Below are positions 5,629 through 59,822 of a stretch of DNA of 64,000 bases, one piece after another. The translations under genes were made by a program, and so were the position numbers. This DNA is from Longimicrobiales bacterium. GTDB taxonomy: Bacteria; Gemmatimonadota; Gemmatimonadetes; Longimicrobiales; Gaopeijiaceae. Each line of letters begins with the position of its first letter. The first letter of the stretch is position 1. The notes below the pieces were generated by a model. It had not been told where the DNA came from and ran no database searches. It saw nothing but the letters and a program-made list of their open reading frames with translations. The stretch covers positions 1,955,712-2,019,711 of the forward strand of contig CBDBJI010000004.1 in the NCBI GenBank assembly GCA_965206305.1, in the 5' to 3' direction.

Positions 5629-5969
5629 CGGTCCAGCGCCTCGCCGGTCAAAAGGCTCGCCGCGACTTCGCCCACCCGCTCGACGGCCTCCAGCGTCCCG
5701 TCCGGTGCCGAGGCCCCGGAGTTCAGGGCGCGGGCGATCTGGTTGAGGTTGACGCCGATCCGGTGGAGTTCGACCCGCTCCCTGGCGCCGAGACGGTGAA
5801 CGGTCGCCTCGCGGATGGGCTGGCCCAGCGCCCTGCAGCGCATGTAGCCGCCCCTCGTCATGCGGGCCGCTCCGGCCCGCTCGGCGATCTCCGCGGCCTC
5901 CGCGGTCGTGACGCGCACGCCGATCGTGCGGCTCCTGCGTTCGGCCTCGGGCTTCCGGGGACGGGCCAT
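5625..5969 (-). CDS. mobC: MobC family mobilization protein
   Basis: MARPRKPEAERRSRTIGVRVTTAEAAEI...RIGVNLNQIARALN; AGGAGG about 9 nt upstream of ATG 5969; stop overlaps the relaxase start. Confidence 0.8.
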   Translation of the reverse strand: MARPRKPEAERRSRTIGVRVTTAEAAEIAERAGAARMTRGGYMRCRALGQPIREATVHRLGARERVELHRIGVNLNQIARALNSGASAPDGTLEAVERVGEVAASLLTGEALDR

Positions 5970-6204
5970 GTCGGGCGGCCTCCTTTGGTGGCGCGCGGAA
6001 GTGTCGTTCGGGGGTCCGGGGGGTGTCCCCCGGCCAGAGGTTTTCGTGAAGCGAAAACACATCTGGCTCCTCCACAGACCGGAGAAACCAGCGCCCCCGT
6101 GGCGCGCCCGCGACCGGGCCGCCAACACTGGACGACGCGCCCGCCCTGCGCGAGGTTTCAAACGCGCAGATCGTGCAGTCCATCGAATCGAGAGGAATCG
6201 AACG
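5970..6204. promoter_or_regulatory. Divergent mobC/int intergenic region; candidate oriT and promoters
   Basis: Two perfect 7-bp-stem hairpins: CCGGGGG-gtgt-CCCCCGG (6016-6033) and GTTTTCG-tgaag-CGAAAAC (6040-6058). Position immediately upstream of mobC-relaxase is where oriT usually lies. No nick site identified. Confidence 0.3.
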
Positions 6205-7365
6205 ATGGCACGCACGAAACGAAGTCGGCGCTCCTACGGCGCCGGAGAGTGGGGCCGCAATCGGGTGAGGGTGTTCCCGGACCCGAAAACCGGCCTGTTC
6301 CAAGTCGAGTGGCGCGAGAACGGGCGCAGGCTCACCCGGTCGCTGGGGCACCGCGAATGGGTGAGGGCGAAGAAGCAGGCGGACGAGTTCGCCGCCGGAT
6401 TCGCCGGCCCGGAGCTGAACGGCAAGGCGGAAGCCGAGCCCGAGCCGCTCACGCTGGGGGGGCTGTTTGACATTTACGGTGAGGAGGTGACGCCCACCAA
6501 GGGCGAGCACACCCGGCAGCACGACCGGACCACGATTGCGATGTTCCTCGGGTTGTTCGGACGGAACCGCGACCCGGCGACCCTCTCCCAACGGGACTGG
6601 GACCGCTTCATCCGCGAGCGTCGGGCGGGAAGGATCGGTCCGAGCGGAAGGCCCGTGTCCGACCGGACGGTCGAATACGACCTCAAGTTCCTGATCGCGG
6701 TTCTGAATTGGGCCGCGAGATCGAGGGACGAGCGGGGCCACCCGCTTCTCGACAGGAATCCGCTCAAGGGCTTCAGAAAGCCCACGGAGAAGAACCCGAC
6801 CCGGGTGGTGCTCACCGAGGACGAGTACCGGGCGCTCCTGAAGGTGGCGGGCCGGTTGGACTGGCGGTTTCGCGTCGCACTCGTGCTCGCGCACGAGACG
6901 GGCCACCGGATCGGAGCCATACGTCAGCTTCGGTGGTGCGACATCGACTTCGAGGGCGGGACGATCCTCTGGCGTGCCGAGCACGACAAGTCGGGCCACG
7001 AACACGCCACGCCCGTCACGGGCGACGCGCTCGCCGCTCTCGACGATGCGCGGAGAAGGAACCCCGGAATCGGAGAAGCACCGGTGCTGCCCGCGCCCAG
7101 GAATCCGCTGGCGTGTCTCGGGGCTGCTCGGTTGCACGCTTGGTGGAGTAACGCCCAGATTCTTGCGGGTCTGGAGCCGAAGCCCGGCAGGGGCTGGCAC
7201 TCGTTGCGACGGAAGTTTGCCAGCGACCTGATGGACCAACCCCTCAAGGTTCTCTGCCAACTCGGCGGCTGGAAGACGGCCAAGACGGTGCTTCGGTGCT
7301 ATCAGAGAGCCGACGAGGGACAGCTTCGGAAGGCTCTGGAAGACCGCCGACGGGCTCGCGGCTGA
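6205..7365 (+). CDS. Tyrosine-type site-specific recombinase/integrase
   Basis: MARTKRSRRSYG...; catalytic-region motifs ...AHETGHRIGAIRQLRW..., HSLRRKFAS and GGWKTAKTVLRCYQ (R...HxxR...Y). Confidence 0.9.
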   Translation: MARTKRSRRSYGAGEWGRNRVRVFPDPKTGLFQVEWRENGRRLTRSLGHREWVRAKKQADEFAAGFAGPELNGKAEAEPEPLTLGGLFDIYGEEVTPTKGEHTRQHDRTTIAMFLGLFGRNRDPATLSQRDWDRFIRERRAGRIGPSGRPVSDRTVEYDLKFLIAVLNWAARSRDERGHPLLDRNPLKGFRKPTEKNPTRVVLTEDEYRALLKVAGRLDWRFRVALVLAHETGHRIGAIRQLRWCDIDFEGGTILWRAEHDKSGHEHATPVTGDALAALDDARRRNPGIGEAPVLPAPRNPLACLGAARLHAWWSNAQILAGLEPKPGRGWHSLRRKFASDLMDQPLKVLCQLGGWKTAKTVLRCYQRADEGQLRKALEDRRRARG

Positions 7366-7973: not shown

Positions 7974-8067
7974 TGGCGCTGAACCTCCGGATTGGCGAAG
8001 ATGAGTGCCGACGATGAATGCCGATGATGAAGAAACTTCGCACCTCATACGTATTTCAAATGCCCCT

Positions 8068-8637
8068 GTGACTCCACTTCCGATCGTTGGCGTGATGGGC
8101 TCGGGTGTCCATGCCCACGGGGAACTTGCCGCGCCGCTCGGCCGGCGGCTCGCGCGGCTGGGGGTTCATCTGCTGACCGGGGGCGGGAGTGGGGTGATGG
8201 AATCCGTGTCGCGGGCGTTCGCGGCGGTGGAAGAGCGGGCGGGGCTGGTGATCGGGGTGCTGCCGTTCGACGAGGCGGATGCCGGGGAGAAAGTCGACCC
8301 CGGATACCCGAATCGGTGGGTGGAGATCACGATTCGCACCCACCTGGGTCAGGACGGGGCAGAGCCCGATTCGCGCAATCACGTCAACGTGCTCACCTCG
8401 GATGTGGTCGTGGCGCTTCCCGGCAGTGTAGGTACGGCTTCCGAGGTCGCGCTGTCGGTGCGCTATGGGCGCCCCGTCGTCCTCTTCGGCGACCTGGACC
8501 GGGCCCGCGGCCTCCCCTCGGAAGTGGCCACGGCGCGCACGGTGGAGGAGGTCATCGCGTTCGTCCGCGAGCGGCTGCGGGACGGCCTTGCGGGCCACGG
8601 TCCCGCCGCGGCCGGCTCCACCGCCAACGCACCGTGA
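8068..8637 (+). CDS. LOG/TIGR00725-like Rossmann-fold nucleotide-binding protein
   Basis: ...PIVGVMGSG...[17 protein letters not shown]...[16 protein letters not shown].... Start uncertain: the ORF opens at 8005, and GTG 8068 avoids the AT-rich presumed promoter. Confidence 0.65.
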
Positions 8638-18733: not shown

Positions 18734-19176
18734 ATGTCCGAACAGATGACCAATATGATCACACCGAAAAGCTGGGCCGCATTCGTGGCACGGGTAATCC
18801 TGGGGCTGATCTTCCTGGCCGCCGGGTTCTGGAAGGTGTTCTTTCTCGGCGCCGTCGAACATGCCCGCGACCTGTTCGTGGTGCCGTACGCGGTGAGCTT
18901 CCTGCCCGAGTGGTTGCTCTGGATCGCCGGCACGACCATCCCCTTCGTGGAACTCGTGTGCGGCGCCCTCATGGTCGCCGGCTGGAAGCGTTTCCCGGCC
19001 GCGCTCGGCCTGGGTGGAGTGCTGGTGGGCACCTCGTCGTCGCCGACCCGCTGTACGCATTCAATACCCACGTCATCCCGCGCGTCGTGCTGCTGGTGCT
19101 TGCGATGGCGATGTTCCAGGAAGACAACCTGAGCATTGACGCGTGGCTGGTGCGAAGGCGACCAGGTCCTCCCTGA
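18734..19176 (+). pseudogene. DoxX-family membrane protein with an apparent -1 frameshift near 19015-19030
   Basis: Frame A: MSEQMTNMITPKSWAAFVARVILGLIFLAAGFWKVF...ALGLGGVLVG. Frame B continues HLVVADPLYAFNTHVIPRVVLLVLAMAMF.... The joined length of about 147 aa fits DoxX. Confidence 0.55.
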
Positions 19177-19253
19177 TTGCGGCGCCGGGCGGCCGGGAGC
19201 ATCATGCTACCTGCCGCGCCACCTGCCGACATGCACCGGAATCGAGGCCACGC

Positions 19254-22200
19254 ATGAGCCCTGTCACCAAAGCCGCCGCACTCGCACTGGCTGCCGTCTG
19301 CACCACCTTCGCCCCCCTCACCGCCCAGCCCCCACCCCCCGCCGTCACCACCGGCTTCCTCTCCGCGCTGGAGCTCCGCGGCATCGGCCCGGCCTTCATG
19401 TCCGGCAGAATCGCCGACATCGCCGTCGATCCCACCAACCGGAGCGTCTGGTACGTCGCCACCTCCTCGTCGAACGTCTGGAAGACCGAAAACCGCGGCA
19501 CCACCTGGACGCCCATCTTCGACAACCAACCCGCGTACTCGACCGGCGCGATCGCGATCGACCCCACCGACTCCAACGTGATCTGGCTCGGCACCGGCGA
19601 GAACACCAGCCAGCGCAGCGTGGGCTGGGGCGACGGCGTCTACAAGAGCCTGGACGGCGGGCGCAGCTGGAGGAACACCGGGCTGCACACCTCGGAGCAC
19701 ATCGGCAAGATCCTGATCGATCCCCGCGACCCGGATGTGGTGTATGCGGCGGCGATGGGCGGGCTGTGGGCGCCCGGCGGCGACCGCGGGCTCTTCAAGA
19801 CGACCGACGGCGGCGACAGCTGGTTCCCCGTGCTGGAACTCAGCGACGACACCGGCATCGCCGACGTGCACCTGGACCCGCGCGACCCGGACGTGCTCTA
19901 CGCGGTGTCCTACCAGCGCCGTCGTCACGTGGGCATCCTCGTCGCGGGCGGCCCCGAGTCCGGGGTGTGGAAGAGCACCGACGGCGGCGAGAGCTGGCGC
20001 GACATCACGGGCGGGCTGCCATCGGGCGACCTCGGGCGGATCGGCCTGGCCGTCTCCCCGATCGACCCCGACGTCCTCTACGCCAATGCCGCCGCCACCG
20101 AGGACCGCAGCGGCTTCTACCGTTCGCCGGACCGCGGCGAGACGTGGCGGCGCATGTCGGACTACATCGTCGTCGACCCGCAGTACTACGGGGAGCTCTA
20201 CCCCGATCCGCACCGGATGGACCGGGTCTACGCGGTGGACGTTTTCATCCACGTGACCGAGGACGGGGGACGCACCTTCGAGCGCGTCAACTCGCGCTTC
20301 AGGCACGTGGACAACCATGCGATCGTCTTCGACCCGGACGACCCCGACTACATGCTGGTCGGCACCGACGGGGGCCTCTACGAATCGTTCGACCGCACGC
20401 AGACCTGGCGCTACGTGTCGGGAAACATGCCGCTGATGCAGTTCTACCGCGTCGGCATCGACAACAAGGCGCCCTTCTACACGGTATACGGCGGAACGCA
20501 GGACAACTCGTCGGTGGGCGGGCCGTCGCGCACCGACAACGTTCACGGGATCCGCAACAGCGACTGGTTCATCACCCACGGGGGCGACGGCTTTCAGGCG
20601 CGCGTCGACCCGGAAGATCCGAACATCGTCTACACGCAGTCCCAGTACGCGGGGATCGTGCGCTACGACCGGGCGAGCGGCGAGGAGCTGGACATCCAGC
20701 CGCAGCCGGAGGCGGGGGAGGGGGCGCTGCGCTGGCACTGGGACTCGCCGCTGATCATCAGCCCGCACGACTCGCGGCGGATCTACTTCGCGGCCCAGAA
20801 GCTGTTTCGGTCGGACGACCGGGCGGAGACGTGGACGGCGGTGAGCGGGGATCTGAGTCGAGGGCTCGACCGCAACCAGCGGCCGGTGATGGGGCGGATC
20901 TGGCCGCCGGAAGCGGTGTGGAAGAACGTGTTTACGTCGCCGTACGGCACGATCGTGGCGCTCGACGAGTCGCCGCTGGCCGAGGGGCTGCTGTATGTGG
21001 GGACGGACGACGGGCTCGTGCAGGTGAGCGAGGACGGGGGAGGGGAGTGGCGCCGCGAGGAGGAGTTTGCGGGGGTGCCGGCGATGGCCTACGTGGCTGA
21101 CGTGGTGGCTTCGCGGCACGACCCGGACCGGGTCTACGCCGTCTTCAACAACCACAAGGAAGGGGACTTCCGGCCGTACGTGACGCGGAGCGACGACCGG
21201 GGTGCGAGCTGGACGAACATCACGGGCGACGTGCCGGACGGACAGTCGAGCTGGACGCTGGTCGAGGACCACGTCGACCCGGACCTGCTCTTCCTGGGCA
21301 CCGAGTTCGGGCTGTTCGTGACGCTGGATGGGGGCGGGGCGTGGGTGCGGCTGCGGGGCGGGCTGCCGACGATCGCGGTGCGCGACCTGGAGATTCAGCG
21401 CCGCGAGAACGACCTGGTGCTGGCGACGTTCGGGCGGGGCTTCTACATCCTGGACGACTACTCGCCGCTGCGTGGGATGGATGAGGCCGTGGCGGCGGGA
21501 GCGGCCCATCTGTTCCCCGTGAAGGACCCGTGGGCGTACATCCCGGCGCGGCCGCTGGGCGGGGCACAGAAGGGGACTTTTGGTGACGCCTTCTTCACCG
21601 CGTCCAACCCGCCCTTCGGGGCCGTCTTCACCTACTTCGTGCGCGATGGCTACGAGTCGCTGAAGGAGCGGCGGCAGCGGTTGGAACGGGAGGCCCTCGC
21701 CCGGGGAGATGACATCACCTACCCCGACCACACCACGCTGACTGCCGAAGACATGGAGCGGCCGCCGGAAGTGTTCCTGGTCGTGTCGGACGGCGCGGGC
21801 GACGTGGTGCGGCGCGTCCCCGCCCCCCGCCGCGCCGGCCTCCACCGCATCGCATGGGACCTGCGCTACGCCTCGCTGGAGCCCCCCTCCCCCGGCGGCG
21901 GCGAGGCCGACGGCCCGATGGTGGCGCCCGGCGAGTATTCGGCCCGCGTCATCCTCGTCACCGATGACGGCCACGAAGATCTCACGGCCCCCGGGTCCTT
22001 CACGGTGCGTCCCCTCGGCACGGCCACCCTCGCCGCCGCCGACCGGGACGCTCTGCTCGCCTTCCAGCGCGAAGTCGCCGCCCTGCAGCGGGTCGCCGTC
22101 GCCACCGATCGCGCCGCCCGCGAGACCTCCGAACGGCTGGCGCTCCTGCGCCGAGCGGTGCGCGCCTCCCCCGGGCTGGACGCCGCGCCCTACGAGGCCC

Positions 22201-22532
22201 GCATTTCGTCCTTCGAGGACCGCCTCTTCGAGATCGGGCGCGTGTTGTCCCGCGACCGCACCGCGCTCGACCGGGCCGAGCTCGCCCCGCCGTCGGTGAT
22301 GCAGCGCATTTCGCGCGTCGTGGGCGCGCAGTTCAGGTCGACCTCGGCGCCCACGACCACGCAGCGCGAGAGCTACGCGGTCGCGTCGGCGCAGCTGGCG
22401 GAGATGTCGGAAATGCTGCGGGTGCTCGTCGAGGCGGACCTTGCGGCGCTCGGGGCAGAACTGGAAGCCGCAGGGGTGCCGTGGACGCCGGGGCGGCCGA
22501 TTCCGCGGTGGCCGACAGAAGGAAATCAGTGA
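19254..22532 (+). CDS. BNR/Asp-box repeat, sortilin/VPS10-like secreted protein
   Basis: Signal peptide MSPVTKAAALALAAVCTTFAPLTAQ. Repeated S-x-D-x-G-x-x-W motifs (KSLDGGRSW, TTDGGDSW, STDGGESW, SPDRGETW, VTEDGGRTF ...). Confidence 0.85.
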   Translation: MSPVTKAAALALAAVCTTFAPLTAQPPPPAVTTGFLSALELRGIGPAFMSGRIADIAVDPTNRSVWYVATSSSNVWKTENRGTTWTPIFDNQPAYSTGAIAIDPTDSNVIWLGTGENTSQRSVGWGDGVYKSLDGGRSWRNTGLHTSEHIGKILIDPRDPDVVYAAAMGGLWAPGGDRGLFKTTDGGDSWFPVLELSDDTGIADVHLDPRDPDVLYAVSYQRRRHVGILVAGGPESGVWKSTDGGESWRDITGGLPSGDLGRIGLAVSPIDPDVLYANAAATEDRSGFYRSPDRGETWRRMSDYIVVDPQYYGELYPDPHRMDRVYAVDVFIHVTEDGGRTFERVNSRFRHVDNHAIVFDPDDPDYMLVGTDGGLYESFDRTQTWRYVSGNMPLMQFYRVGIDNKAPFYTVYGGTQDNSSVGGPSRTDNVHGIRNSDWFITHGGDGFQARVDPEDPNIVYTQSQYAGIVRYDRASGEELDIQPQPEAGEGALRWHWDSPLIISPHDSRRIYFAAQKLFRSDDRAETWTAVSGDLSRGLDRNQRPVMGRIWPPEAVWKNVFTSPYGTIVALDESPLAEGLLYVGTDDGLVQVSEDGGGEWRREEEFAGVPAMAYVADVVASRHDPDRVYAVFNNHKEGDFRPYVTRSDDRGASWTNITGDVPDGQSSWTLVEDHVDPDLLFLGTEFGLFVTLDGGGAWVRLRGGLPTIAVRDLEIQRRENDLVLATFGRGFYILDDYSPLRGMDEAVAAGAAHLFPVKDPWAYIPARPLGGAQKGTFGDAFFTASNPPFGAVFTYFVRDGYESLKERRQRLEREALARGDDITYPDHTTLTAEDMERPPEVFLVVSDGAGDVVRRVPAPRRAGLHRIAWDLRYASLEPPSPGGGEADGPMVAPGEYSARVILVTDDGHEDLTAPGSFTVRPLGTATLAAADRDALLAFQREVAALQRVAVATDRAARETSERLALLRRAVRASPGLDAAPYEARISSFEDRLFEIGRVLSRDRTALDRAELAPPSVMQRISRVVGAQFRSTSAPTTTQRESYAVASAQLAEMSEMLRVLVEADLAALGAELEAAGVPWTPGRPIPRWPTEGNQ

Positions 22533-31096: not shown

Positions 31097-31537
31097 CTAG
31101 ACGGCCTCGATCTCGTAGCCGATCCGCCAGTTGGACATGTTCTCGGGGTCGTCCGAGCCCTCGTCCCCCGGCTGGATGAACTGGATGTGGCTCTGGATCG
31201 GCCCGTTGAAGGTGCGGTGGTAGAACTCCAGCTCATCGTTCGCGGAGAACTGGTCGAGCTCCTCGCCGCGCAGCTGGATTTCCAGGTGATCGCTCACCTC
31301 GCCCTCGAATAGCACCTTGTCCAGATCGTTCAGCCGGTTCCAGCGCGGATGGTCCGAGATCGGGTAGTGTCCCTTCCGGGGCATGCGGGTTTCCTGGACC
31401 TTCCCCCCGCCGTTGTTCGTCCAGACCTTGGCCCAGAAGACGAATTCCCCCTTGTCCTTGAAAAACGGCTCAAGGTCATCGAGGATCTGCAACCAGCGCA
31501 AGGTGACCCTGATCCGTGTTCCGCCCTGTCCAGTCAT
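31097..31537 (-). CDS. Hypothetical protein (orphan, predicted all-beta)
   Basis: 146-aa ORF with clean coding-like composition (IRVTLRWLQILDDLEPFFKDKGEFVFWAKVW...WRIGYEIEAV). No family recognised. Confidence 0.5.
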   Translation of the reverse strand: MTGQGGTRIRVTLRWLQILDDLEPFFKDKGEFVFWAKVWTNNGGGKVQETRMPRKGHYPISDHPRWNRLNDLDKVLFEGEVSDHLEIQLRGEELDQFSANDELEFYHRTFNGPIQSHIQFIQPGDEGSDDPENMSNWRIGYEIEAV

Positions 31538-31659: not shown

Positions 31660-32430
31660 TCACCCTTTGTAGAGGATCACGAAGAAGCTGTCGCGGCGGT
31701 CGTCCTCGGCGACCAGCACCGTCATTCTGCGCTCTTCCTGAGCCAACATGACGCTGCCGTGACCGGGCGCGTCGGCGCTCGTGGCGTTCAACGAAATGCT
31801 GGACGAAGCCCGGAGCGACCAGCCGTCCGGGTCACCCGCGGACTCCTTGTACCACTCCAGGACCTCCTCGGCGCCGGCATCGGCCAGCAGCACCTCGACG
31901 CCGAAGGAGAACTCGTCGAACTCCGTCAGCACGCCTGCGCTGTGACGTGCACCCGGGAAGATGGACACCCACTCCGGCGCCGCGCTTTCCGTCGCGGCGC
32001 CGGCGCCGTCCCCCGCATCCTCGCGGCCGACGTCGGCGAAGTACATCTCGCCACGTCCGACCCTGTCCAGGTATTCGCTGACGCTGACCAGGTCGAACCC
32101 GATGGTTTCCCCGTCCATCGTCTCCAGGTTGAATGTGAATCCCGAACCTTCCTCGGCCGGCTCGACTGCCATCCCCTCCCTCAGCAGCATGAGGGTTCCC
32201 GCTTCGGAGACGACCCGGGCGAAACTGGTGCTGACGTCGCCGAGACTCGCCACGGCGACGGTCTCCAGCTGTTCGCCCAACTCCTCGAGCAGTTCCGGCG
32301 CGTTCTCCACCAGGTTTCGGACGGCGAAGATCCCCACCACGACCATCGCCAACACCAGCGTGCCGAGCGCCGCCCCCCCGATCAGCAGGACCTTTGCAAG
32401 TGTGGACATCCCTTTGCGCTCGTCTGACAT
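31660..32430 (-). CDS. Single-pass membrane-anchored hypothetical protein (paralog A of 33988-34860)
   Basis: MSDERKGMSTLAKVLLIGGAALGTLVLAMVVVGIF...; GGAGG 6 nt upstream of ATG 32430. Shares N-terminal, PEWVSIFPGARH and C-terminal ...FFVILYK blocks with paralog B. Confidence 0.6.
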   Translation of the reverse strand: MSDERKGMSTLAKVLLIGGAALGTLVLAMVVVGIFAVRNLVENAPELLEELGEQLETVAVASLGDVSTSFARVVSEAGTLMLLREGMAVEPAEEGSGFTFNLETMDGETIGFDLVSVSEYLDRVGRGEMYFADVGREDAGDGAGAATESAAPEWVSIFPGARHSAGVLTEFDEFSFGVEVLLADAGAEEVLEWYKESAGDPDGWSLRASSSISLNATSADAPGHGSVMLAQEERRMTVLVAEDDRRDSFFVILYKG

Positions 32431-32517
32431 GTTCATCCTCCTGTCCCGTGGTCGGCCTGAGCCGAACATTGTGCGTGACCGGAGCGCCCCGCCGCAAGCG
32501 GGCATCGGCGCCGGATC

Positions 32518-33000
32518 CTACCCCGCGCCCCACTCCTCGATGAAATCTTCCGGCTCCACGCCCAGGCCGTCGGCGATCCGCGTGATGTAGTTGAAGAAGC
32601 CGATCACCTGCGCCGCGTCGTGAATGGCCCGGTCGGTCAGGCCATGGGCACGGAGCGCCTCGAGGTCGCGCGGGGTCATATGCTCTTCCTTACGTGAAAT
32701 CTTTACCGCGTATTCACAGAGCGCCCGATCCGCGGGGGGCAGCGCCGCCCTGCGCCAGTCACGGACGACCTGGTGTACGAAGGCGTCGCCCTGTGCCCCG
32801 TCCCATCCTTCGGTCGTGACCTCGGCTCGGAGGTCGTGCGCGTGCGCCTGCGTTCAGTAGAAGCAGTCGAGCTCGGCGGACACGACGGTGGCGAGCAGCA
32901 CGATCTTCCAGACGCGCCCCGAACGCGCCACCGCGGCGTCGAGTTCGCGCCGCAGCGCCCCGGTGGCTTCCTCGCGGGGGATCTCGGTGATCCAGGCCAT
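32518..33000 (-). CDS. AhpD/carboxymuconolactone-decarboxylase (CMD)-like peroxidase-related protein with in-frame TGA (candidate selenocysteine, C-F-Y-U-T-Q-A-H)
   Basis: Hand translation: MAWITEIPREEATGALRRELDAAVARSGRVWKIVLLATVVSAELDCFY-TGA-TQAHAHDLRAEV...LCEYAVKISRKEEHMTPRDLEALRAHGLTDRAIHDAAQVIGFFNYITRIADGLGVEPEDFIEEWGAG*. TGA (32854-32856) sits at the second Cys of the AhpD CxxCxxxH motif. Absent from the ORF track because the TGA splits it. Confidence 0.55.
32818..32835 (-). other. SECIS-like hairpin downstream of the AhpD-like TGA
   Basis: mRNA sense GACCUC-CGAGCC-GAGGUC (6-bp stem, 6-nt loop containing G) begins 18 nt after the UGA. Confidence 0.4.
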
Positions 33001-33013
33001 CTTTCGCTCCTCG

Positions 33014-33862
33014 TCACCCGTCCACCGGTTCGAAATGTCGCAGCATCTCGTTCCGCAGCGCCATCGCCAGGCCCTTGCGGTCGCGGGACCGCATCGGTGC
33101 GCCGCCGAAACGCACCGTGCAGTCGATGCGCTTCAGCGCGAGGAGCCCGGCGCAGTGCCTGGGGAATGTGACATCGCTCCACCAGCAGACCCGGTCGCGG
33201 GCCGAGGGCGCCCCGTCCGGCGTGCGGTAGGTCACCGTGAGCCAGTGTATCGGAGCTCGGCGCGCGGCCGCGGTGGCGAGCAGCGACGGCTTGAAGGACA
33301 GCATGGAGGAGCCGTCGCTGGTGGTGGCTTCCGGGAAGACCACTACCCCGTCGCCCCGCTCGAGCGCGCGCTCGATGCCGGCCAGCGCGCCGACCACGTC
33401 CCGCTTTTTGGAGCGGTCGACGTAGACGGTCCCGCCCACCGTCGATACAAACCCCCAGTACGGCCAGCGCCTCAGTCCGGCCCGCGCGACGAACACCACC
33501 GGGAGGAGCGACGACAGGACCAGGATGTCCAGGTAGCTCACGTGGTTGGAGACGACCAGGAAGCCGGGGGGAGGGGGCGTGCCCCGCGTCTCCACCCGCA
33601 CCCCGATCGCGCGAAGGATCCCCCGCCCCCACAGCCGGGAGTACCACCGCCGGATCCGCGCCCTCGAGGTTGCGCCGGTGCGGGGCCGCAGCAGCGCAGG
33701 CAGCCAGGAGACGACCAGCAGCGCGACAAGCAGAGTGGTCCAGGCGCCGATGGCCAGCACCTTGAGGCCAACGCGGAGCCCTTCGGCGATTCCGGGCCGG
33801 GCAGGGGGGTCGATTGCGGTCAAGGGCTGGCGCGCTCGCTGTTCGGGACTAAACGTGGGCAT
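33014..33862 (-). CDS. plsC: 1-acyl-sn-glycerol-3-phosphate acyltransferase
   Basis: ...FLVVSNHVSYLDILVL... (NHxxxxD) and ...VVVFPEATTSDG...; N-terminal TM segment. Confidence 0.85.
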   Translation of the reverse strand: MPTFSPEQRARQPLTAIDPPARPGIAEGLRVGLKVLAIGAWTTLLVALLVVSWLPALLRPRTGATSRARIRRWYSRLWGRGILRAIGVRVETRGTPPPPGFLVVSNHVSYLDILVLSSLLPVVFVARAGLRRWPYWGFVSTVGGTVYVDRSKKRDVVGALAGIERALERGDGVVVFPEATTSDGSSMLSFKPSLLATAAARRAPIHWLTVTYRTPDGAPSARDRVCWWSDVTFPRHCAGLLALKRIDCTVRFGGAPMRSRDRKGLAMALRNEMLRHFEPVDG

Positions 33863-33987
33863 GAAACAATCATGCCACCGATTCGTAGGCGGGTGTGCGG
33901 GTGGCCGTGCGGCGGTGCGCGAGCGGACCCGGGCGAGCCGAGGGCAGACCGTCAGAATATCCGGCAAACAACACAGGGGGAAGAGCG

Positions 33988-53284: not shown

Positions 53285-56086
53285 CTACAACCGGCCCGAC
53301 CCCACCCCCGACCCCACCCCCACCGCCCCCACCGCCGGCGCCTGCCCCACCGCCTTCAGCGCCACCGGACACGCCTTCAGCGCCGCTGTTTGCGTGACCG
53401 GGTCGTACCCACCCCCCGTCAACACGTTCACCGGTACGTCCTCGAACGCGAACGACGCGAAGACCGTCCCCTTCGGCGACTTGGTCGTGCCGCGCACCTT
53501 CACGTGCAGGCACCCGCGCGGGCTGCTCAACTCGGCCCAGCCGCCGTCCTCGAGCCCCAGGCGCGCGATGTCGGCGGGGTGGACCTCCAGCGTCTCCTCC
53601 GAGAGCAGGTAGTCGATCCCCCCCGACCGCCCCGTCTGTGTGCGCGTGTGGTACTGGGGCAGCCGGCGTCCGGTGGTCAGCCACATGGGGTACTCGTCGG
53701 AAATCGTCTCCTCCGGATCCCGGTATTTGAGCATCTTGAAGATTCCGCGACCGTTTTCGAACACGTGCTCGTGGAGCATCGGCGTTCCCGGGTGCCCTTC
53801 CTCCGGCACGGGCCACTGGTATTCACCCTTGTCGATCCGGTCCCAATCCAGTCCCGCGTACATGGGTGACAGGGAGCAGAGCTCGTTGAAGACCTCCTTG
53901 GCGGACTCGAACTCGAACCCCTTCCAGCCCATCCGCTGGGCGAGCCGCGACAGGATCCACCAATCGGGCTTCGCCTCACCCACCGCCGGCACCGCGGCGC
54001 GCAGGCGCTGGACGCGGCGCTCGGTGTTGGTGCAGACGCCGTCGGTCTCGGCCCACGCGGTGGCCGGGAAGACCACATCGGCCACCTTGGCGGTCTCGGT
54101 CATGAAGATGTCGATCACGACCAGGCAGTCGAGGCTGCCCAGCGCGTGCTCGCAGTGGTGGCGGTCCGGGTCGGTGACCAGCGTGTTCTCGCCGTCGATG
54201 ATCATCGCGTGGATGCCGTCGCCGCACAGGTCCAGCGCGGTGACCTTGGTCATTCCCGTCTCCAGGTCGACCTTGCGCCCGTAGGCCTTGTGGAATTTCT
54301 CCTGGTGCGCCGGATCGGTGACGGCCTGGAAGCCCGCGTAGTTGTTCGGCAGCGCGCCCGCGTCGCCCGCCCCCTGGATGTTGTTCTGGCCGCGCATGGG
54401 GTTCACCCCCGTGCCCTCGCGGCCCAGGTTGCCGGTCATCAGCGCCAGGTTGCACAGGCTCTGCACGTTGTCCACGCCGCAGACGTGCTCGGTGATGCCG
54501 ACCGTGTAGTAGATCGCGCCGCGGTCGGCCCCGCCGTACAACAGCGCCGCCTGCTCGATGTCCTCTGGCGCGCACTCGCAGATCTCGGACGCCCACTCGG
54601 GGGTGTAGCGCTCGACGTGCTTGAAGAAGTCCTCGCCGTGGGCGGTGCGCTCGTCGACGAAGGCCTGGTTCACCAGCCCCTCGCGGGCGATCACATGCGC
54701 CATGGCCAGCAGCAGCGACACGTCGGAACCGACGCGAAGGGGCAGATGAACGTCCGCGATCTCCGCGAGCCCGATCCGCCGGGGGTCCGCCACGATCATC
54801 TTCGCGCCCCTGGCCAGCGCCCGCTTCAGCCGCGTGGCCGCGACCGGGTGGCACTCGGTCATGTTGGTGCCGATGCAGAAGATCACATCCGGCTTGTCCA
54901 TGTCCGCGAGCGGGTTCGACATCGCCCCTCTTCCGATTGTTGCCGCCAGACCGGCGACTGTGGGAGCGTGTCAGGCACGGCTGCAGTTGTCGATGTGATT
55001 CGTCCCCAATCCCGCCCGGATGAAGCGCTGCATCATGTAGGCGGCCTCATGCGGGGCGCGTCCGGAGGCGATCCCGTAGACGGCGCGGCGCCCGTGGTCC
55101 TTCACCACCTTGCGCAGCTTGCCCGCGGCCCGGTCCAGCGCCTCGTCCCACGACGCGGGGCGGAGCTCGCCCGACTCCTCGTCGCGCACGAACGGCGTGG
55201 CCAGCCGGTCCGGGTGCCCCACGAAGTCGAAGGCGAACTGGCCCTTCACGCAGAGCGCGCCCTCGTTGGCGGGGCCGTCCATCGCGGGGAGCACCCCCAC
55301 CAGCTTGTCCCCACGAGTCATGACGTCCACCGAGCAGCCCACCCCGCAGTACGGGCACACCGTGCGGGTGGTCTTCGTTTCGCCGGGGACCTCCCGGTTG
55401 GCCAGCGCCTTGAGGTCGCCCAGCGCGCCGGTGGGACACGTCTGGATGCACTGCCCGCAGAAGGTGCACGCCGAGTCCTTCAGCAGGCCGCCGAACTCCG
55501 TGGTGATCTGCGTGTCGAAACCCCGGTTCATGATCGAGATCGCGTAGTCGCCCTCCTGCTCGGCGCACACGCGCACGCAGCGGTAGCAGGAGATGCAGTT
55601 GTCGTAGTCGCGCTTGATGAAGGGGTTGTCGTCGTCGTCGCGGCTTGCGCCCGACAGCGCGCCCTCGAAGCGGCCGGTGCGCGCGTCGTAGCGGTCGAGC
55701 AGCTCGGCCATCTCCTGCGAGGCGTACCCGTGCATGGGGTCGACATCGGTGTCGCGGTTCTCCGACGCCACCATCTCCATGAGGATGCGCCGCTGTACCT
55801 CGAGGCTCGCCGAGCGGGTGCGCACTCGCATCCCGGGCTCGGCTTTCGTGGTGCACGAGGCCACCGGGTTGCGCGCGCCCTCCAGCTCGACCACGCAGAG
55901 GCGGCAGCCCCCGAAGGGATCGAGGCGGGGGTCGTAGCACAGCGTCGGGATCTCTCTGCGGTGCCGCTCCGCGACCTCGTAGATGGTCTCGCCGCGGCTG
56001 AAAGTGACCTTCTCGCCGTCCAGCGTCATGCTGAGCCGGACACCCTTGCCGTTCGTCGATGGGGTGCCGTTCCTCTTCATCGTCAT
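53285..56086 (-). CDS. fdhA: Formate dehydrogenase alpha subunit (NuoG-like Fe-S N-terminus + Mo/W-bis-PGD domain), selenocysteine-containing (in-frame TGA 54971-54973)
   Basis: ORFs 54971-56086 and 53285-54922 are one frame (2802 nt = 934 codons). The junction reads ...NHIDNCSRA-TGA-HAPTVAGLAATIGRGAMSNP.... From memory this aligns with E. coli FdhF ...CARV-U-HGPSVAGLHQSVGNGAMSN.... Confidence 0.9.
54942..54958 (-). other. fdhA SECIS hairpin
   Basis: mRNA sense GUCGCC-GGUCU-GGCGGC starts 12 nt after the UGA. The GGUCUG apical segment matches, from memory, the E. coli fdhF SECIS apex. Confidence 0.6.
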
Positions 56087-57762
56087 CAGCCTTTCTCAAC
56101 ATGCGCCCGGACCCGGTCCGGAAAGTACCGGATCAGGCTCTCCGTCAATAGTGGGGCCGCCTGGCCCAACCCGCACGCGCTCGTCTTCTTCATGACTTCA
56201 TTAAGGTCGACCACTTCATCCACCCACGCGTCCACGGTGCCGGGTCCCTTTCCTTCCAACCGCTCCACCAGGCGCTGGGTCCCGATCCGGCAGGGGAAGC
56301 ACTTCCCGCACGACTCCTCCGCGAAGAACTCCATCGACTCGCGGGTCACCGCGATCATGTCGCGGGAGTCGTCGAAGACCATGATCCCGCCCGCGCCCAG
56401 GAAGCTGCCCTTCGATCGGATCGAGGGCTCGTCGAGGGTGACGTCGAGGTCCGCGCCGGCCAGGAAGCCGCCGGAAAGCCCCGCCATCGTGACCGCCTGG
56501 ACGGTGCGGCCGGGCGGCGGTCCTCCTCCCCACCCGTGCAGCAGTTCACCCAGGGGCAGCCCGAGGGGGACTTCGTAGTTGCCCGGCCGCGCGATGTCGC
56601 CCGAGAGGCTGATCACCTTGGTGCCGGCGTGGTCGCCGCGCCCCAGGCCGCGGTACCAGTCGGCGCCGTGCACGAGGACGGGGGGTGCCGAGGCCAGCGT
56701 CTCGACGTTGTTCACGACGGTGGGCAGGTTCTCGTAGCCGTGCGTGACGGGGAAGGGGGGGCGGTTGCGGGGGAAGGGGTGCTGCCCTTCGAGCGAATTG
56801 AGGAGCGAGGTCTCCTCGCCGCAGATGTAGGCGCCGGCGCCGCGCCTGACCATCAGTCGGAACGAAAAGTCCGTGCCCAGGACGCCGGCCCCCAGCAGCC
56901 CCGCCGCCTCCGCCTCCGCGATCGCGCCCTCGAGGATGTCGAACGTCTCCGGATACTCGTAGCGCAGGTAGATGAACCCGCGCACCGATCCCGTCGCGTA
57001 GGCGGCGAGCGCCATCCCCTCGATCGTCCCGTGGGGGTCGTGGTCCATCAGCACCCGGTCCTTGAAGCACCCGGGCTCGCCCTCGTCGGCGTTGCAGACG
57101 ATCGTCTTGGGCCCGCCCGGCGCGTCGGCCACCGCCCGCCACTTCCGCCCGGTGGGAAACCCCGCCCCCCCCCTCCCCGCCAGCCCGCTCTGGTCGATCA
57201 CGTCGATCACCTCCCCCGGCGACATCCCGGTGACCGCCCGCGTCAGCGCCTCATAGCCGCCCTGGCTCCGGTACCCTTCCAGCGTGGCCTGCCCGGGGCG
57301 CCGGATCCCCGCGAACACGCACTCCTCGATCCCGTCCGGGGGCGGCAGCGGCAGCGGCGACGGCCCGCTGACGAGCGTCCCGGCGGTCCGGCCGGTGAGC
57401 ACCGTCCCCCCATGGATCACGGGCACGGGCTGGTCGCAGCGGCCCGGACACGGCATCGTCATCGGGTCGTGTCCGGCCGCGCGAAGGCTCGCCAGGAGCA
57501 CATCGGCGCCCCGCATGGTGCAAACGGGGCCGTTGCAGACGCGCGGCCGGTCGAGGCCGGCGGCGTCCCGCGAGAAGTGGTGGTAGAAGGTGACCGTGCC
57601 GAAGAGGTCGGCGATCGGGATGCGGAGTCCGGCCGAGACGGCGCGGAGCGCATCTTCCGACAGGTACCCGTCGCGCGCGTGCAGGTCGTGCAGGAGGGGA
57701 AGGAGGGGCGCAGGCTCGCCCTTCCAGCGCAGCACGAGTTCGTCGTTGGTCGGCCTTGGCAT
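56086..57762 (-). CDS. NAD-dependent formate dehydrogenase diaphorase subunit (NuoE-like + NuoF-like fusion)
   Basis: NuoE-like ...VCNGPVC...PCPGRC. NuoF-like ...GLAGRGGAGFPTGRKW...VCNADEGEPG...ESCGKCFPCR.... Start is either 57762 or 57819; stop overlaps the fdhA start by 1 nt. Confidence 0.85.
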   Translation of the reverse strand: MPRPTNDELVLRWKGEPAPLLPLLHDLHARDGYLSEDALRAVSAGLRIPIADLFGTVTFYHHFSRDAAGLDRPRVCNGPVCTMRGADVLLASLRAAGHDPMTMPCPGRCDQPVPVIHGGTVLTGRTAGTLVSGPSPLPLPPPDGIEECVFAGIRRPGQATLEGYRSQGGYEALTRAVTGMSPGEVIDVIDQSGLAGRGGAGFPTGRKWRAVADAPGGPKTIVCNADEGEPGCFKDRVLMDHDPHGTIEGMALAAYATGSVRGFIYLRYEYPETFDILEGAIAEAEAAGLLGAGVLGTDFSFRLMVRRGAGAYICGEETSLLNSLEGQHPFPRNRPPFPVTHGYENLPTVVNNVETLASAPPVLVHGADWYRGLGRGDHAGTKVISLSGDIARPGNYEVPLGLPLGELLHGWGGGPPPGRTVQAVTMAGLSGGFLAGADLDVTLDEPSIRSKGSFLGAGGIMVFDDSRDMIAVTRESMEFFAEESCGKCFPCRIGTQRLVERLEGKGPGTVDAWVDEVVDLNEVMKKTSACGLGQAAPLLTESLIRYFPDRVRAHVEKG

Positions 57763-57879
57763 CGGCGGTGGGGTTTGAGGTGGAAGCGGGGGGACAATAG
57801 ATATAGTCATCGTAAACATTTGGCGAGTGCGGCACGCTCAGCGAACGAGTGCCGCACGCTCGACGGGAGGACCCCAAGG

Positions 57880-58749
57880 TTGGCAACGACACCCCGGCGC
57901 AGGGCCGCCCGGATCCGGGTGGGACGCATGCGCGATGGCTGGTACCGGGCGCGGAGCGACAGCGTCGCCGTCGAGGAGCCCATGGAGGTGCGCCTGGAGG
58001 TGCCGGGCGAGGACGGAGTGCGCGAACACCCCGTGTCGGTGACGATGAGGACGCCGGGTGACGACTTCGAGCTCGCCGCGGGCTTCCTCTTCACCGAGGG
58101 CGTGGTGACCGACCCGCGCGCCCTGGGCGACGTGAGGTACTGCCGTAGCGTGGATCCCCAGGAGTACAACGTCGTCACCGCGTCGCTCCGGGATCCGGCC
58201 GCCTTCGACCCGGCCAGCCTCGCCCGCAACTTCTACGTGACGTCGTCGTGCGGCGTGTGCGGAAAGGCGTCGCTCGAGTCGGTCGAGATCATGGGATGCC
58301 AGGCTGTGCCCGACGGTACCCTGGCGGTGGCCGACGCGGACGTGCGGGCGCTCCCGGACCGGTTGCGGTCGGCCCAGCGCGTCTTCGACCGGACGGGGGG
58401 CATCCATGCCGCTGGGGTCTTCGACGCGGATGGTAGGGTCACACTGGTGCGCGAGGACGTGGGGCGGCACAATGCGGTGGACAAGATCATCGGAGCACTG
58501 ATCCTGTCCGGTGGGCTCCCCGGGTCGGCGCTGGGCCTGGTCGTCTCCGGCCGCTCGTCCTTCGAGATCCTGCAGAAGGCCGCGATGGCGGGCTTCCCCG
58601 TAGTCGTTGCGGTGGGCGCGCCCTCGAGCCTGGCGGTGACCTTCGCCCGGCGGTTCAACATGACGCTCGTGGGCTTCGCGAAGTCCGACGGCTATAACGT
58701 CTACTCCGGTGACGAGCGGGTCACCGGGCTCGGAAGTGAAACGGAATGA
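57880..58749 (+). CDS. fdhD: Formate dehydrogenase accessory sulfurtransferase FdhD
   Basis: ...VAVEEPMEVRL...SSCGVCGKASLE...GGIHAAG...EDVGRHNAVDK...SGRSSFEILQKA.... TTG 57880 follows GGGAGG; start uncertain (alternative ATG 57928). Confidence 0.85.
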   Translation: MATTPRRRAARIRVGRMRDGWYRARSDSVAVEEPMEVRLEVPGEDGVREHPVSVTMRTPGDDFELAAGFLFTEGVVTDPRALGDVRYCRSVDPQEYNVVTASLRDPAAFDPASLARNFYVTSSCGVCGKASLESVEIMGCQAVPDGTLAVADADVRALPDRLRSAQRVFDRTGGIHAAGVFDADGRVTLVREDVGRHNAVDKIIGALILSGGLPGSALGLVVSGRSSFEILQKAAMAGFPVVVAVGAPSSLAVTFARRFNMTLVGFAKSDGYNVYSGDERVTGLGSETE

Positions 58750-59822
58750 GTCTTCTCGGCGCCGTACTTGCCGGGGGCGGCAGCCGCCGCTTCCGTTCGC
58801 CCAAAACGCTCGCCCGGCTCCATGGCACGCCCCTCTGGCAGGTCGTGGCCGACCGGCTGCGGGAGGTGTGCGACGAGGTGGTCGCGGTCGTCAACCACCC
58901 CCAGGTCGCGCACGAAATGGAGCTGGAGACGCTCCCCGACCGCCGCCCGCTGATCGGCCCGCTGGGGGGGATCGACGCCGCTCTGGCCCGTGCCGTGCGC
59001 GGTGGCCATGACGCGGTGCTGGTGCTTGCGGTGGACATGCCCTGGGTGGGAACCGAGGCGCTTCGCCTGCTGGTGGATGTGTGGCGGCAGCACGGCCGGA
59101 CGACGCTTCCGCGGGCGGGGGGGCCGTGGGGATTCCACCCCCTCTGCGGGATCTATCCGCTCGGGGCGCTCACACCGCTCAACGGCGCGCTCGCCGAGAG
59201 GAAGCTGGAATCCGGAGCCTTCGCCCGCTCCCTTGATCCCGTTGTCGTGGACACCGGCCTCTCGCCGTGGGACTTCCGCAGCGTGAATCAAACCGTGGAC
59301 CTGCCGCCTCCGGCGTTCTCCATCGTGGGGAACAAGAAGTCGGGGAAGACGACGCTGTCCGTCGCCGTGATCGGGGAGCTCGCAGCGCGCGGCCGCCGCG
59401 TAATGTCGGTGAAGCACGGCCATCACTTCCGGCTGGACACCCCCGGGACCGACTCCTGGCGCCACCGGCACGAAGGCGGCGCCGAACGCGTGCTCCTCGC
59501 GGGGCCCGACGAGTTCGCGCTTCTGGCGGGCTGGGGCCCGGAGGGAGAGCCGCCCCTGGACCTGCTTCTGAGCCGTCACCTGGCGGACGCCGAGATCGTC
59601 GTGGTGGAGGGGTTCCGCCAGACCCGCCTTCCCAAGATCGAGATCTACCGCGCCGCCGCGCAGGCCGAACCGGTGTTCCCGCCTGACGAAGCGTGTGACC
59701 GGCGCGTCCTGGCCGTAGCGACGGACCGCCCCGATCTGCCATGGTCCGTCCCCGTCCTGGATGCGGATGCGCCGGATACCGCCGCCCGCATCGCCGACCT
59801 GGTCGAGGGACACCTGTTGTGA
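58746..59822 (+). CDS. mobA: Molybdenum cofactor guanylyltransferase MobA fused to MobB
   Basis: MSLLGAVLAGGGSRRF... (MobA) then ...FSIVGNKKSGKTTL... P-loop (MobB). ATGA overlap with fdhD. Confidence 0.85.
   Translation: MSLLGAVLAGGGSRRFRSPKTLARLHGTPLWQVVADRLREVCDEVVAVVNHPQVAHEMELETLPDRRPLIGPLGGIDAALARAVRGGHDAVLVLAVDMPWVGTEALRLLVDVWRQHGRTTLPRAGGPWGFHPLCGIYPLGALTPLNGALAERKLESGAFARSLDPVVVDTGLSPWDFRSVNQTVDLPPPAFSIVGNKKSGKTTLSVAVIGELAARGRRVMSVKHGHHFRLDTPGTDSWRHRHEGGAERVLLAGPDEFALLAGWGPEGEPPLDLLLSRHLADAEIVVVEGFRQTRLPKIEIYRAAAQAEPVFPPDEACDRRVLAVATDRPDLPWSVPVLDADAPDTAARIADLVEGHLL

What the first reader, a model, noticed from the sequence alone, without database searches (positions are those of the whole stretch)
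32518..33000. Hidden AhpD/CMD-like gene with TGA at the CxxC cysteine: candidate selenoprotein (C-F-Y-U-T-Q-A-H)
No ORF is listed here, yet the minus strand translates cleanly from ATG 33000 to TAG 32518 (161 codons) with a single in-frame TGA at 32854-32856. That TGA falls exactly on the second cysteine of the AhpD-type C-x-x-C-x-x-x-H redox motif. A 6-bp-stem hairpin (GACCUC-CGAGCC-GAGGUC) starts 18 nt downstream, which puts loop G residues 26-28 nt from the UGA, within the range described for bacterial SECIS elements. The same window has a formate dehydrogenase with a textbook Sec codon, so the organism very likely has the Sec machinery. AhpD-like/CMD selenoproteins have been reported from comparative genomics. 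Even so, this one would be missed or called a pseudogene by standard pipelines. It sits in an operon-like arrangement with plsC.
Basis: partly seen in the sequence, partly recalled or inferred. Interest (0 to 1): 0.7.

Follow-up and report, generated by a model that had tools for sequence, protein, structure and literature searches.

The report
Known AhpD-like selenoprotein gene, deleted allele
The hidden gene is real and its TGA is a genuine selenocysteine codon of a well-catalogued redox-protein family, but this strain's copy has lost 33 amino acids next to the active site and is probably crippled.

Summary
Minus strand 33000..32518 reads as one 161-codon frame with a single TGA (32856..32854) at the second Cys of C-F-Y-U-T-Q-A-H. 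A 6-bp hairpin starts 18 nt downstream.

The TGA is not a nonsense mutation. All 80 species-level orthologous loci retrieved carry TGA at this codon; they come from Gemmatimonadota, Chloroflexota, Acidobacteriota, Actinomycetota and others. The hairpin is held by synonymous-site constraint: Leu is CTC in 77/77 loci against a 37% background, and Val is GTC in 69/71 against 34%. It also shows a compensatory GAC/GTC to GAT/ATC switch in 6 loci. The same window has a Sec-type formate dehydrogenase.

The family is already known: "AhpD-like protein", TIGR01926/COG2128, CxxU, reported in 2005, abundant in the 2008 GOS survey and listed in 2026 reviews.

The new point is that the window's copy carries a clean 99-nt in-frame deletion. 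It removes residues 35-67: one whole helix and the start of the catalytic helix hairpin, including the invariant proton-relay Glu. A genome 99.2-99.8% identical keeps the intact 194-codon gene. The deleted allele occurs on 14 public contigs in at least 7 complete-gene haplotypes, so it is a real within-species polymorphism. It is most likely an early loss-of-function allele. Overall this is an ordinary, known kind of gene and of low interest.

The parts
32518..33000 (-). AhpD-like (TIGR01926) selenoprotein gene, deleted allele: 160 sense codons including one Sec codon, plus the TAG stop
   Evidence: Identical or near-identical copies occur on 14 public contigs. The intact 194-codon ortholog is in L008.
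33007..33012 (-). GAGGAG Shine-Dalgarno, 6 nt upstream of ATG 33000
   Evidence: Read directly from the sequence. Also conserved in L001-L012.
32854..32856 (-). UGA selenocysteine codon (U49 of this allele, U82 of the intact protein) in C-F-Y-U-T-Q-A-H
   Evidence: TGA is present at this column in 80/80 species-level loci and in all close relatives. It aligns to Cys2 of CxYC in 6K40 and 2PFX.
32818..32835 (-). SECIS-type hairpin GACCUC-CGAGCC-GAGGUC, starting 18 nt after the UGA. The loop base A at 32827 is an outlier: every other species has G or U there.
   Evidence: 99.8% of cells pair, against 25-50% in slid controls. There are 6 compensatory C-G to U-A cells. Leu is CTC 77/77, Glu GAG 77/77, Val GTC 69/71, and the loop Arg codon is only CGG or CGT.
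32898..32901 (-). Junction of the 99-nt in-frame deletion, between codons V34 and L35, with 2-bp microhomology GC. The missing part is QVMSLNAPVLRATMAQYAAIMFGPSPLTRLQRE.
   Evidence: Alignments A2 and A3 against L001-L006 and L008. All 80 genome loci cover residues 1-193.
33014..33967 (-). Upstream acyltransferase (PlsC-like, PF01553). Its stop lies 13 nt before the AhpD-like start.
   Evidence: The adjacency is conserved in only 7/80 loci.
54971..54973 (-). Supporting feature: Sec codon of the formate dehydrogenase alpha subunit (gene about 53285..56095), followed by hairpin GUCGCC-GGUCU-GGCGGC
   Evidence: 60-nt fold, z = -2.2.

Best explanation
The locus is a genuine selenocysteine-encoding gene of the known AhpD-like / peroxidase-related family (TIGR01926, COG2128, CxxU motif).

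In the intact form (194 codons) the ribosome reaches UGA-82. SelB with Sec-tRNA(Sec), recruited by the hairpin 18 nt downstream, inserts Sec at the position of the second, nucleophilic Cys of the C-x-x-C-x3-H redox centre. The product is an all-helical thiol/selenol oxidoreductase. By analogy with AhpD proteins it would reduce a peroxiredoxin partner or peroxide.

In the strain sampled by this window the gene carries a 99-nt in-frame deletion. It removes helix 41-56 and the first turn of the first helix of the catalytic helix hairpin, including eight invariant residues and the proton-relay Glu (E67 of E-x11-C-x2-U-x3-H). This allele segregates within the species alongside the intact one. Most likely it encodes a misfolded or catalytically impaired protein, which would make it an early stage of selenoprotein loss.

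What is shown: the frame, the conserved TGA, the conserved hairpin, family and fold membership, the deletion and its population distribution. What is inferred: actual Sec insertion, the redox function, and loss of activity of the deleted allele.

Confidence that this is a true Sec gene of the known family is about 0.95. Confidence that the deleted allele is functionally impaired is about 0.65.
For: - TGA is present at the same codon in 80/80 species-level loci from at least six phyla, and in the syntenic relatives L001-L012.
- Both sides of the TGA evolve as coding sequence in one frame. Third-position diversity is about 0.50, against 0.19-0.28 at positions 1 and 2.
- The hairpin is supported by comparison: 99.8% pairing, six compensatory GAU...AUC cases that cost a Val-to-Ile change, CTC 77/77 against a 37% background, GTC 69/71 against 34%, and a loop Arg codon that is never CGC (38% background).
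- Gene callers truncate the homologs just after the TGA, or translate it as W or G.
- Family and fold: TIGR01926 scores 116.4 and 85.3 bits; PDB relatives are 6K40, 2PFX, 2OYO, 3C1L and 2PRR.
- A Sec-type FDH with its own hairpin is in the window.
- Literature: AhpD-like CxxU selenoproteins are described in PMC1088965, PMC2398784 and PMC13188914.
- Deletion: alignments A2 and A3. The intact allele is in L008, which is 99.2-99.8% identical in the flanks.
- The deleted allele is on 14 contigs, in at least 7 complete-gene haplotypes among the 10 copies read.
- The deleted residues map to helix 41-56 and the start of helix 63-76. The relay Glu is defined in PMC3141380.
Against: - No direct evidence of Sec insertion exists.
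- The sel genes and tRNA-Sec were not found in the window, and the rest of the genome could not be searched.
- As a single sequence the hairpin folds no better than shuffled controls (z = +0.6).
- Against 'impaired': the deleted allele keeps its start, frame, TGA, stem and stop in all haplotypes read (at least 7 over the complete gene), and it appears to be the commoner allele. Sec is largely ionised at physiological pH (general knowledge), so the relay Glu could matter less than in Cys enzymes.
Confidence: 0.7

Rival explanations
1. The 33-residue-shorter allele is still a working selenoprotein. In this reading a compact AhpD-like variant tolerates loss of one helix and of the relay Glu because the selenol is already deprotonated.
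For: Start, frame, UGA, SECIS stem and stop are intact in at least 7 complete-gene haplotypes on 14 contigs. The allele is more often seen than the intact one. The window allele still passes the TIGR01926 cutoff at 85.3 bits against 81.8.
Against: The deletion removes eight invariant residues (M37, N40, Y51, M55, R63, Q65, R66, E67) and a full helix. None of the 80 species-level orthologs, nor any full-length database hit, has such a deletion. At about 99.7% strain identity no secondary lesions would be expected yet, so an intact frame says little. A conserved SECIS loop position (G or U in 77/77 loci) is A in this haplotype.
Confidence: 0.25
2. The TGA is an ordinary nonsense mutation in a decaying Cys-type CMD gene and the hairpin is a chance feature of GC-rich DNA.
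For: TGC to TGA is a single step. The single-sequence folding energy is unremarkable. This copy also carries a deletion.
Against: TGA is present in 80/80 orthologs across phyla, with coding-type conservation on both sides. The stem is under synonymous-site constraint and shows compensatory change. The family is a catalogued selenoprotein family.
Confidence: 0.02
3. The 99-nt gap is an assembly or sequencing artefact of this window.
For: Only one intact near-identical copy (L008) was seen for comparison.
Against: The same junction appears in independent assemblies from many samples and two assembly styles. These include three contigs longer than 1 Mb and short-read scaffolds that differ by SNPs.
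Confidence: 0.01

Closest known systems
AhpD-like protein selenoprotein family (TIGR01926 peroxidase-related enzyme; COG2128; 'AhpD-like 1' of the GOS survey)
   Same: It has the same HMM family, the same CxxU motif with Sec at the second Cys, and a SECIS hairpin with G in a small apical loop. The family is widespread in environmental bacteria.
   Different: This allele lacks residues 35-67, including the relay Glu. Such a deletion was seen in no other member examined.
Solved Cys-type relatives: D. radiodurans AhpD 6K40; peroxidase-related proteins 2PFX, 2OYO, 3C1L, 2PRR
   Same: The intact ortholog shares 28-33% identity with them over the whole length, has the same all-helical fold, and has the same ERE...C-x-Y-C-x3-H active-site hairpin.
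   Different: They use Cys where this family uses Sec. They are full length.
NCBIfam NF041238 AhpD_rel_CFYUT, alkylhydroperoxidase-related (seleno)protein ('hypothetical protein 1' of the Sargasso Sea)
   Same: It has an identical local motif, C-F-Y-U-T, and a related C-terminal domain.
   Different: That family is about 357 residues long. The gene here matches only the C-terminal part of the profile (positions 151-339 for the intact ortholog, 223-339 for the window allele), at 60-74 bits against a cutoff of 175. It is not a member.
Mycobacterium tuberculosis AhpD (1GU9/1KNC)
   Same: It has the same proton-relay logic of Glu, Cys, x, Cys, His on a two-helix hairpin (PMC3141380).
   Different: The similarity is only remote (Foldseek E = 0.02, TM about 0.44). 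The catalytic hairpin sits at a different place in the chain. No ahpC lies next to the gene here.

Membership tests
AhpD-like selenoprotein (TIGR01926 / COG2128, CxxU) | Scores at or above the curated TIGR01926 cutoff (81.8 bits) | tested here: met
   The window allele scores 85.3 bits but covers only profile positions 68-177 of 178. The intact ortholog L008 scores 116.4 bits over positions 6-177.
AhpD-like selenoprotein (TIGR01926 / COG2128, CxxU) | C-x-x-C/U-x3-H redox motif with UGA at the second Cys | tested here: met
   C46-F-Y-U49-T-Q-A-H53. It aligns to CVYCAVSH in 6K40 and CFYCLVAH in 2PFX.
AhpD-like selenoprotein (TIGR01926 / COG2128, CxxU) | Proton-relay Glu 12 residues before the first Cys (E-x11-C) | tested here: not met
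   The window allele has Val34 at that position because the deletion removes ...LQRE. The intact ortholog has E67, which is invariant in alignment A4. The role of this Glu is described in PMC3141380.
AhpD-like selenoprotein (TIGR01926 / COG2128, CxxU) | In-frame UGA conserved among orthologs, with coding conservation on both sides | tested here: met
   TGA in 80/80 species loci. Codon-position diversity shows the same coding pattern on both sides.
AhpD-like selenoprotein (TIGR01926 / COG2128, CxxU) | Bacterial SECIS: stem-loop just downstream of the UGA with G in a small apical loop | tested here: met
   6-bp stem, 6-nt loop C-G-R/U-..., with 99.8% pairing, compensatory change and synonymous-site constraint. 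The criterion is from PMC1088965. No dedicated SECIS predictor was available.
AhpD-like selenoprotein (TIGR01926 / COG2128, CxxU) | All-helical AhpD-like fold | tested here: inconclusive
   Met for the full-length family member P0003 (pLDDT 81; Foldseek probability 1.0 to 6K40, 2PFX, 2OYO, 3C1L and 2PRR). The deleted window protein could not be modelled.
AhpD-like selenoprotein (TIGR01926 / COG2128, CxxU) | Host has the Sec-decoding trait (selA, selB, selC, selD) | not testable with these tools
   Only the window could be read. It holds no tRNA and no sel genes among the scanned ORFs. Indirect support comes from the Sec-type FDH with its hairpin in the window.
AhpD-like selenoprotein (TIGR01926 / COG2128, CxxU) | Selenium actually incorporated into the protein | not testable with these tools
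   This needs 75Se labelling or mass spectrometry.
NF041238 AhpD_rel_CFYUT | Scores at or above the curated cutoff (175 bits) over the 357-position profile | tested here: not met
   60.3 bits for the window allele and 74 bits for the intact ortholog. Only the C-terminal part of the profile is matched.
Carboxymuconolactone decarboxylase (PF02627 CMD domain) | Pfam gathering score of 23 bits | tested here: met
   25 bits. This is domain-level membership only. True gamma-CMD enzymes lack the CxxC site (PMC3141380), so a decarboxylase function is not implied.

The most novel reading that the evidence does not exclude
The 33-residue-deleted allele is not a dying gene. In this reading it is a functional, selectively maintained 'mini' Sec-AhpD. 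That would show that a selenol active site makes the Glu proton relay and one helix of the AhpD fold dispensable. It would be a natural experiment on why Sec replaces Cys.
Probability: 0.12. Interest if true: 0.45.

Novelty: already known. Interest (0 to 1): 0.2.

Why it matters
The practical value is for annotation. Here a standard gene caller splits a real gene into 48-aa and 53-aa fragments. In public protein databases the same family appears as hundreds of C-terminal stubs, or as 'W' or 'G' read-throughs under the wrong genetic code. Recognising it corrects the selenoproteome of an uncultured Gemmatimonadota lineage.

The deletion allele is a small bonus. It is a within-species polymorphism, with genomes more than 99% identical, in which a selenoprotein gene has lost its catalytic Glu while the UGA and SECIS remain. 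Selenoprotein loss has so far been inferred mostly from comparisons between sister species (PMC1794560). This case may show an early step of such a loss. It does not change any concept.

Tried and rejected
1. Single-sequence thermodynamics of the hairpin gave z = +0.6, which is uninformative in 69% GC DNA. I replaced it with comparative analysis.
2. The Rfam gathering scan of the window gave no hit, and no match to any Rfam family covered this hairpin.
The U-to-C sequence is not an exact window sequence, and the direct reference contains a stop.
4. An exact 24-mer across the deletion junction gave 0 hits in JGI metagenomes. The allele was found instead through ENA assemblies.
6. The window was searched for sel genes, tRNA-Sec and a second AhpD copy; none was found. 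Two ORFs with SelB-like and SelA-like lengths turned out to be a cytochrome c and a protein with no hit.
7. The idea of a conserved plsC-ahpD operon is rejected as a family feature. The adjacency occurs in 7/80 loci, and sometimes on the other side of the gene.
8. Membership of NF041238, the 'CFYUT' model, is rejected on score and coverage.
9. Alternative genetic codes (TGA as Trp or Gly) are rejected. The adjacent acyltransferase terminates at TGA, and the FDH uses TGA at the canonical Sec site.

Full report
**Observation**

The minus strand from ATG 33000 to TAG 32518 translates as one 161-codon frame. It has a single internal stop, TGA at 32856..32854, in the context ...SAELDCFY*TQAHAHDLRAEV.... 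The mechanical ORF list shows only two pieces, of 48 and 53 aa.

- 5' stem GACCUC at 32835..32830
- loop CGAGCC at 32829..32824
- 3' stem GAGGUC at 32823..32818

It starts 18 nt after the codon. A GAGGAG Shine-Dalgarno sits 6 nt before the ATG. The upstream acyltransferase (PF01553) stops 13 nt before the ATG.

**Family**

With Cys in place of the stop, the protein passes Pfam CMD (25 bits against 23). It also passes NCBIfam TIGR01926 'peroxidase-related enzyme' (85.3 bits against 81.8), but it matches only profile positions 68-177. NCBIfam has a model literally named AhpD_rel_CFYUT (NF041238). The gene here scores 60-74 bits against its cutoff of 175 and covers only the C-terminal part of that longer profile. 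It shares the motif but is not a member.

The intact ortholog (see below) scores 116.4 bits over the whole TIGR01926 profile. It is 28-33% identical to solved Cys-type proteins 6K40 (D. radiodurans AhpD), 2PFX, 2OYO, 3C1L and 2PRR, and the TGA aligns to the second Cys of C-x-Y-C-x3-H. An AlphaFold model of a full-length family member (pLDDT 81) retrieves the same PDB entries with probability 1.0.

**Is the TGA a Sec codon or a lesion?**

A protein search gave 802 hits. Most of the best are 95-115-aa fragments that begin just after the TGA column (MQAHAHDLR...). The few 'full-length' ones carry W or G exactly at that column, which is the signature of gene callers using codes 4 or 25.

At the DNA level, syntenic orthologs L001-L006 have TGA at the same codon. 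A scan of one genome per GTDB species returned 80 loci, from Gemmatimonadota (Longimicrobiales, Gemmatimonadales), Chloroflexota, Acidobacteriota, Actinomycetota, Planctomycetota and others. All 80 have TGA at this column. Across them, third-codon-position diversity is about 0.50, against 0.19-0.28 for positions 1 and 2, both upstream and downstream of the TGA. The two halves are therefore one coding frame under purifying selection. A nonsense mutation is excluded.

**The hairpin**

Taken alone it folds no better than shuffled sequence (z = +0.6). The stem is built from the Asp-Leu and Glu-Val codons, so protein conservation could mimic structure. The synonymous positions settle the question:

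| Position | In the hairpin | Background in the same genes |
|---|---|---|
| Leu codon | CTC 77/77 | 37% |
| Val codon | GTC 69/71 | 34% |
| Glu codon | GAG 77/77 | 71% |
| Loop Arg codon | CGG or CGT only; never CGC | CGC 38% |

In six loci Asp GAC becomes GAT together with GTC becoming ATC. This is a C-G to U-A compensatory change, accepted at the price of Val-to-Ile. Formal counting gives 99.8% paired cells against 25-50% for slid controls, and no shuffle out of 500 reaches the observed covariation.

A small loop with a conserved G fits the published description of bacterial SECIS elements (PMC1088965). The same window contains a formate dehydrogenase alpha subunit with TGA in NCSRA-U-HAPTVAGL and its own strong hairpin. 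The organism therefore very probably decodes Sec. No sel genes or tRNA-Sec lie in the window, and the rest of the genome could not be read.

**What is different here: a deletion**

Every full-length homolog has 33 residues between ...VW.IV and LLATVVS... that the window lacks. DNA alignment shows a clean 99-nt in-frame deletion with a 2-bp (GC) microhomology at the junction, 32898..32901.

Looking up contigs that carry the identical 146-aa neighbour gene found both forms:

- L007, L009, L010 and L012 have the deletion.
- L008, which is 99.2-99.8% identical over the flanks, has the intact 194-codon gene with the same TGA and hairpin.

The window differs from L007 by 13 SNPs in 8.4 kb, none of them in the gene. 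The exact 48-aa N-terminal piece is on 14 public contigs. The ten copies read give eight distinct sequences, seven of them over the complete gene, and all keep start, frame, TGA, stem and stop. The deletion is therefore real. It is polymorphic within one species and seems to be the more frequently sampled allele.

**Consequence of the deletion**

In the model the missing residues 35-67 comprise the loop after helix 15-30, the whole helix 41-56, the next loop, and the first five residues of helix 63-76. Helix 63-76 and helix 80-97 form the two-helix catalytic hairpin that defines AhpD-like proteins. According to PMC3141380, this hairpin carries the proton relay Glu / Cys / Tyr-or-His / Cys / His. 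Here that is E67, C79, Y81, U82 and H86.

The deletion removes E67, leaving Val34 in its place, along with seven other invariant residues. None of the 80 species-level orthologs has a comparable gap. In addition, the window's haplotype has A at a SECIS loop position that is G or U in all 77 other sequences. This variant occurs on several deleted haplotypes.

I infer that the allele is probably misfolded or catalytically impaired, an early step of gene loss. I hold this at about 0.65. At this level of strain divergence no secondary lesions are expected yet, and a selenol needs less help to ionise than a thiol.

**Mechanism proposed for the intact gene**

1. SelB with Sec-tRNA binds the hairpin 18 nt past the UGA and inserts Sec-82. 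This step is inferred from the conserved anatomy.
2. The C79-x-x-U82 pair cycles between selenol/thiol and selenenylsulfide.
3. It thereby reduces a peroxiredoxin-type partner or peroxide, as shown for Cys-type AhpD proteins. This rests on established knowledge of M. tuberculosis AhpD and PA0269.

The physiological partner is unknown. No ahpC is adjacent. The plsC linkage is seen in only 7 of 80 loci. A 146-aa protein / SufE / radical-SAM neighbourhood is kept in 17 of 80 loci, all in the closest clade.

**Comparison with what is known**

'AhpD-like protein' (COG2128, CxxU) was reported as a new selenoprotein family in the Sargasso Sea data in 2005, with 27 sequences and a predicted SECIS shown. 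In the 2008 GOS survey it was the fourth most abundant prokaryotic selenoprotein family, with 299 Sec and 902 Cys forms. It is listed as 'AhpD-like protein, TIGR01926, CxxU' in a 2026 review and is used as the browsing example in the 2026 BSepDB paper. The kind of element is therefore already known.

**Verdict**

The feature is a real member of a known selenoprotein family that pipelines miss. The only new element is the segregating in-frame deletion that probably disables this strain's copy. Interest is 0.2.

Noticed in passing
window 31097-31537 (-); also L017-L037: A 146-aa protein with no Pfam hit is very conserved, at 80-95% aa identity in 17 Longimicrobiales-type loci. It always lies next to a divergently oriented SufE and a radical-SAM gene, downstream of the AhpD-like gene. 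Its function is unknown.
   Followed up: partly
window 32827 (-), SECIS loop position 3: The window, L097 (= L007), L098, L101 and L105 have CGA (A) where all 77 other sequences have G or U. This synonymous change falls at a constrained loop base and was seen only on deletion-bearing haplotypes. It may be a first sign of relaxed constraint on the SECIS.
   Followed up: partly
window 53285-57837 (-) and 58740-59819 (+): An NAD-type formate dehydrogenase module: a Sec-containing alpha subunit (TGA 54971-54973), preceded by a NuoF-like subunit with FMN, 4Fe-4S and 2Fe-2S domains. A MobA-MobB fusion for molybdopterin guanine dinucleotide synthesis lies nearby.
   Followed up: partly
window 2575-3675 (-) and 5848-7362 (+): An IS110-family transposase (DEDD_Tnp_IS110 + Transposase_20) and a phage-integrase-family recombinase lie near the start of the window. 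This suggests a mobile-element insertion region.
   Followed up: no
protein database hits P0001-P0006, P0016, P0118: Public gene calls for this family include TGA translated as W or G (wrong genetic code on short contigs). They also include 'spliced' products that skip the TGA region. These annotation artefacts inflate apparent sequence diversity.
   Followed up: partly
L007 6008-8343 vs L008 6079-8441: The flank beyond the radical-SAM gene drops to 95.8% identity with 12 gaps, while the rest of the locus is 99.2-99.8% identical. The cytochrome c and radical-SAM gene calls differ in length (166 vs 175 aa, 347 vs 361 aa). This is probably a recombination tract between strains.
   Followed up: no
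L010 about 3389-3390 (homolog of window gene 31660-32505): In one deletion-bearing sample the 256/281-aa gene downstream of the AhpD-like gene is called as two fragments, and the blastn alignment breaks there. This suggests a frameshift or an assembly error in that sample.
   Followed up: no
window codons 107-126 of the gene (about 32621-32680): Seven of the 12 differences between the window allele and the intact L008 allele cluster within 60 nt. They are shared by some deleted haplotypes (L009, L099, L100, L104). This indicates recombination between deleted and intact alleles.
   Followed up: partly
window 19140-22529 (+) and 8005-8634 (+): A 1130-aa protein with Sortilin-Vps10 (BNR/Asp-box type) repeats, and a SLOG cluster4 family protein. 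Both are unrelated to the finding.
   Followed up: no
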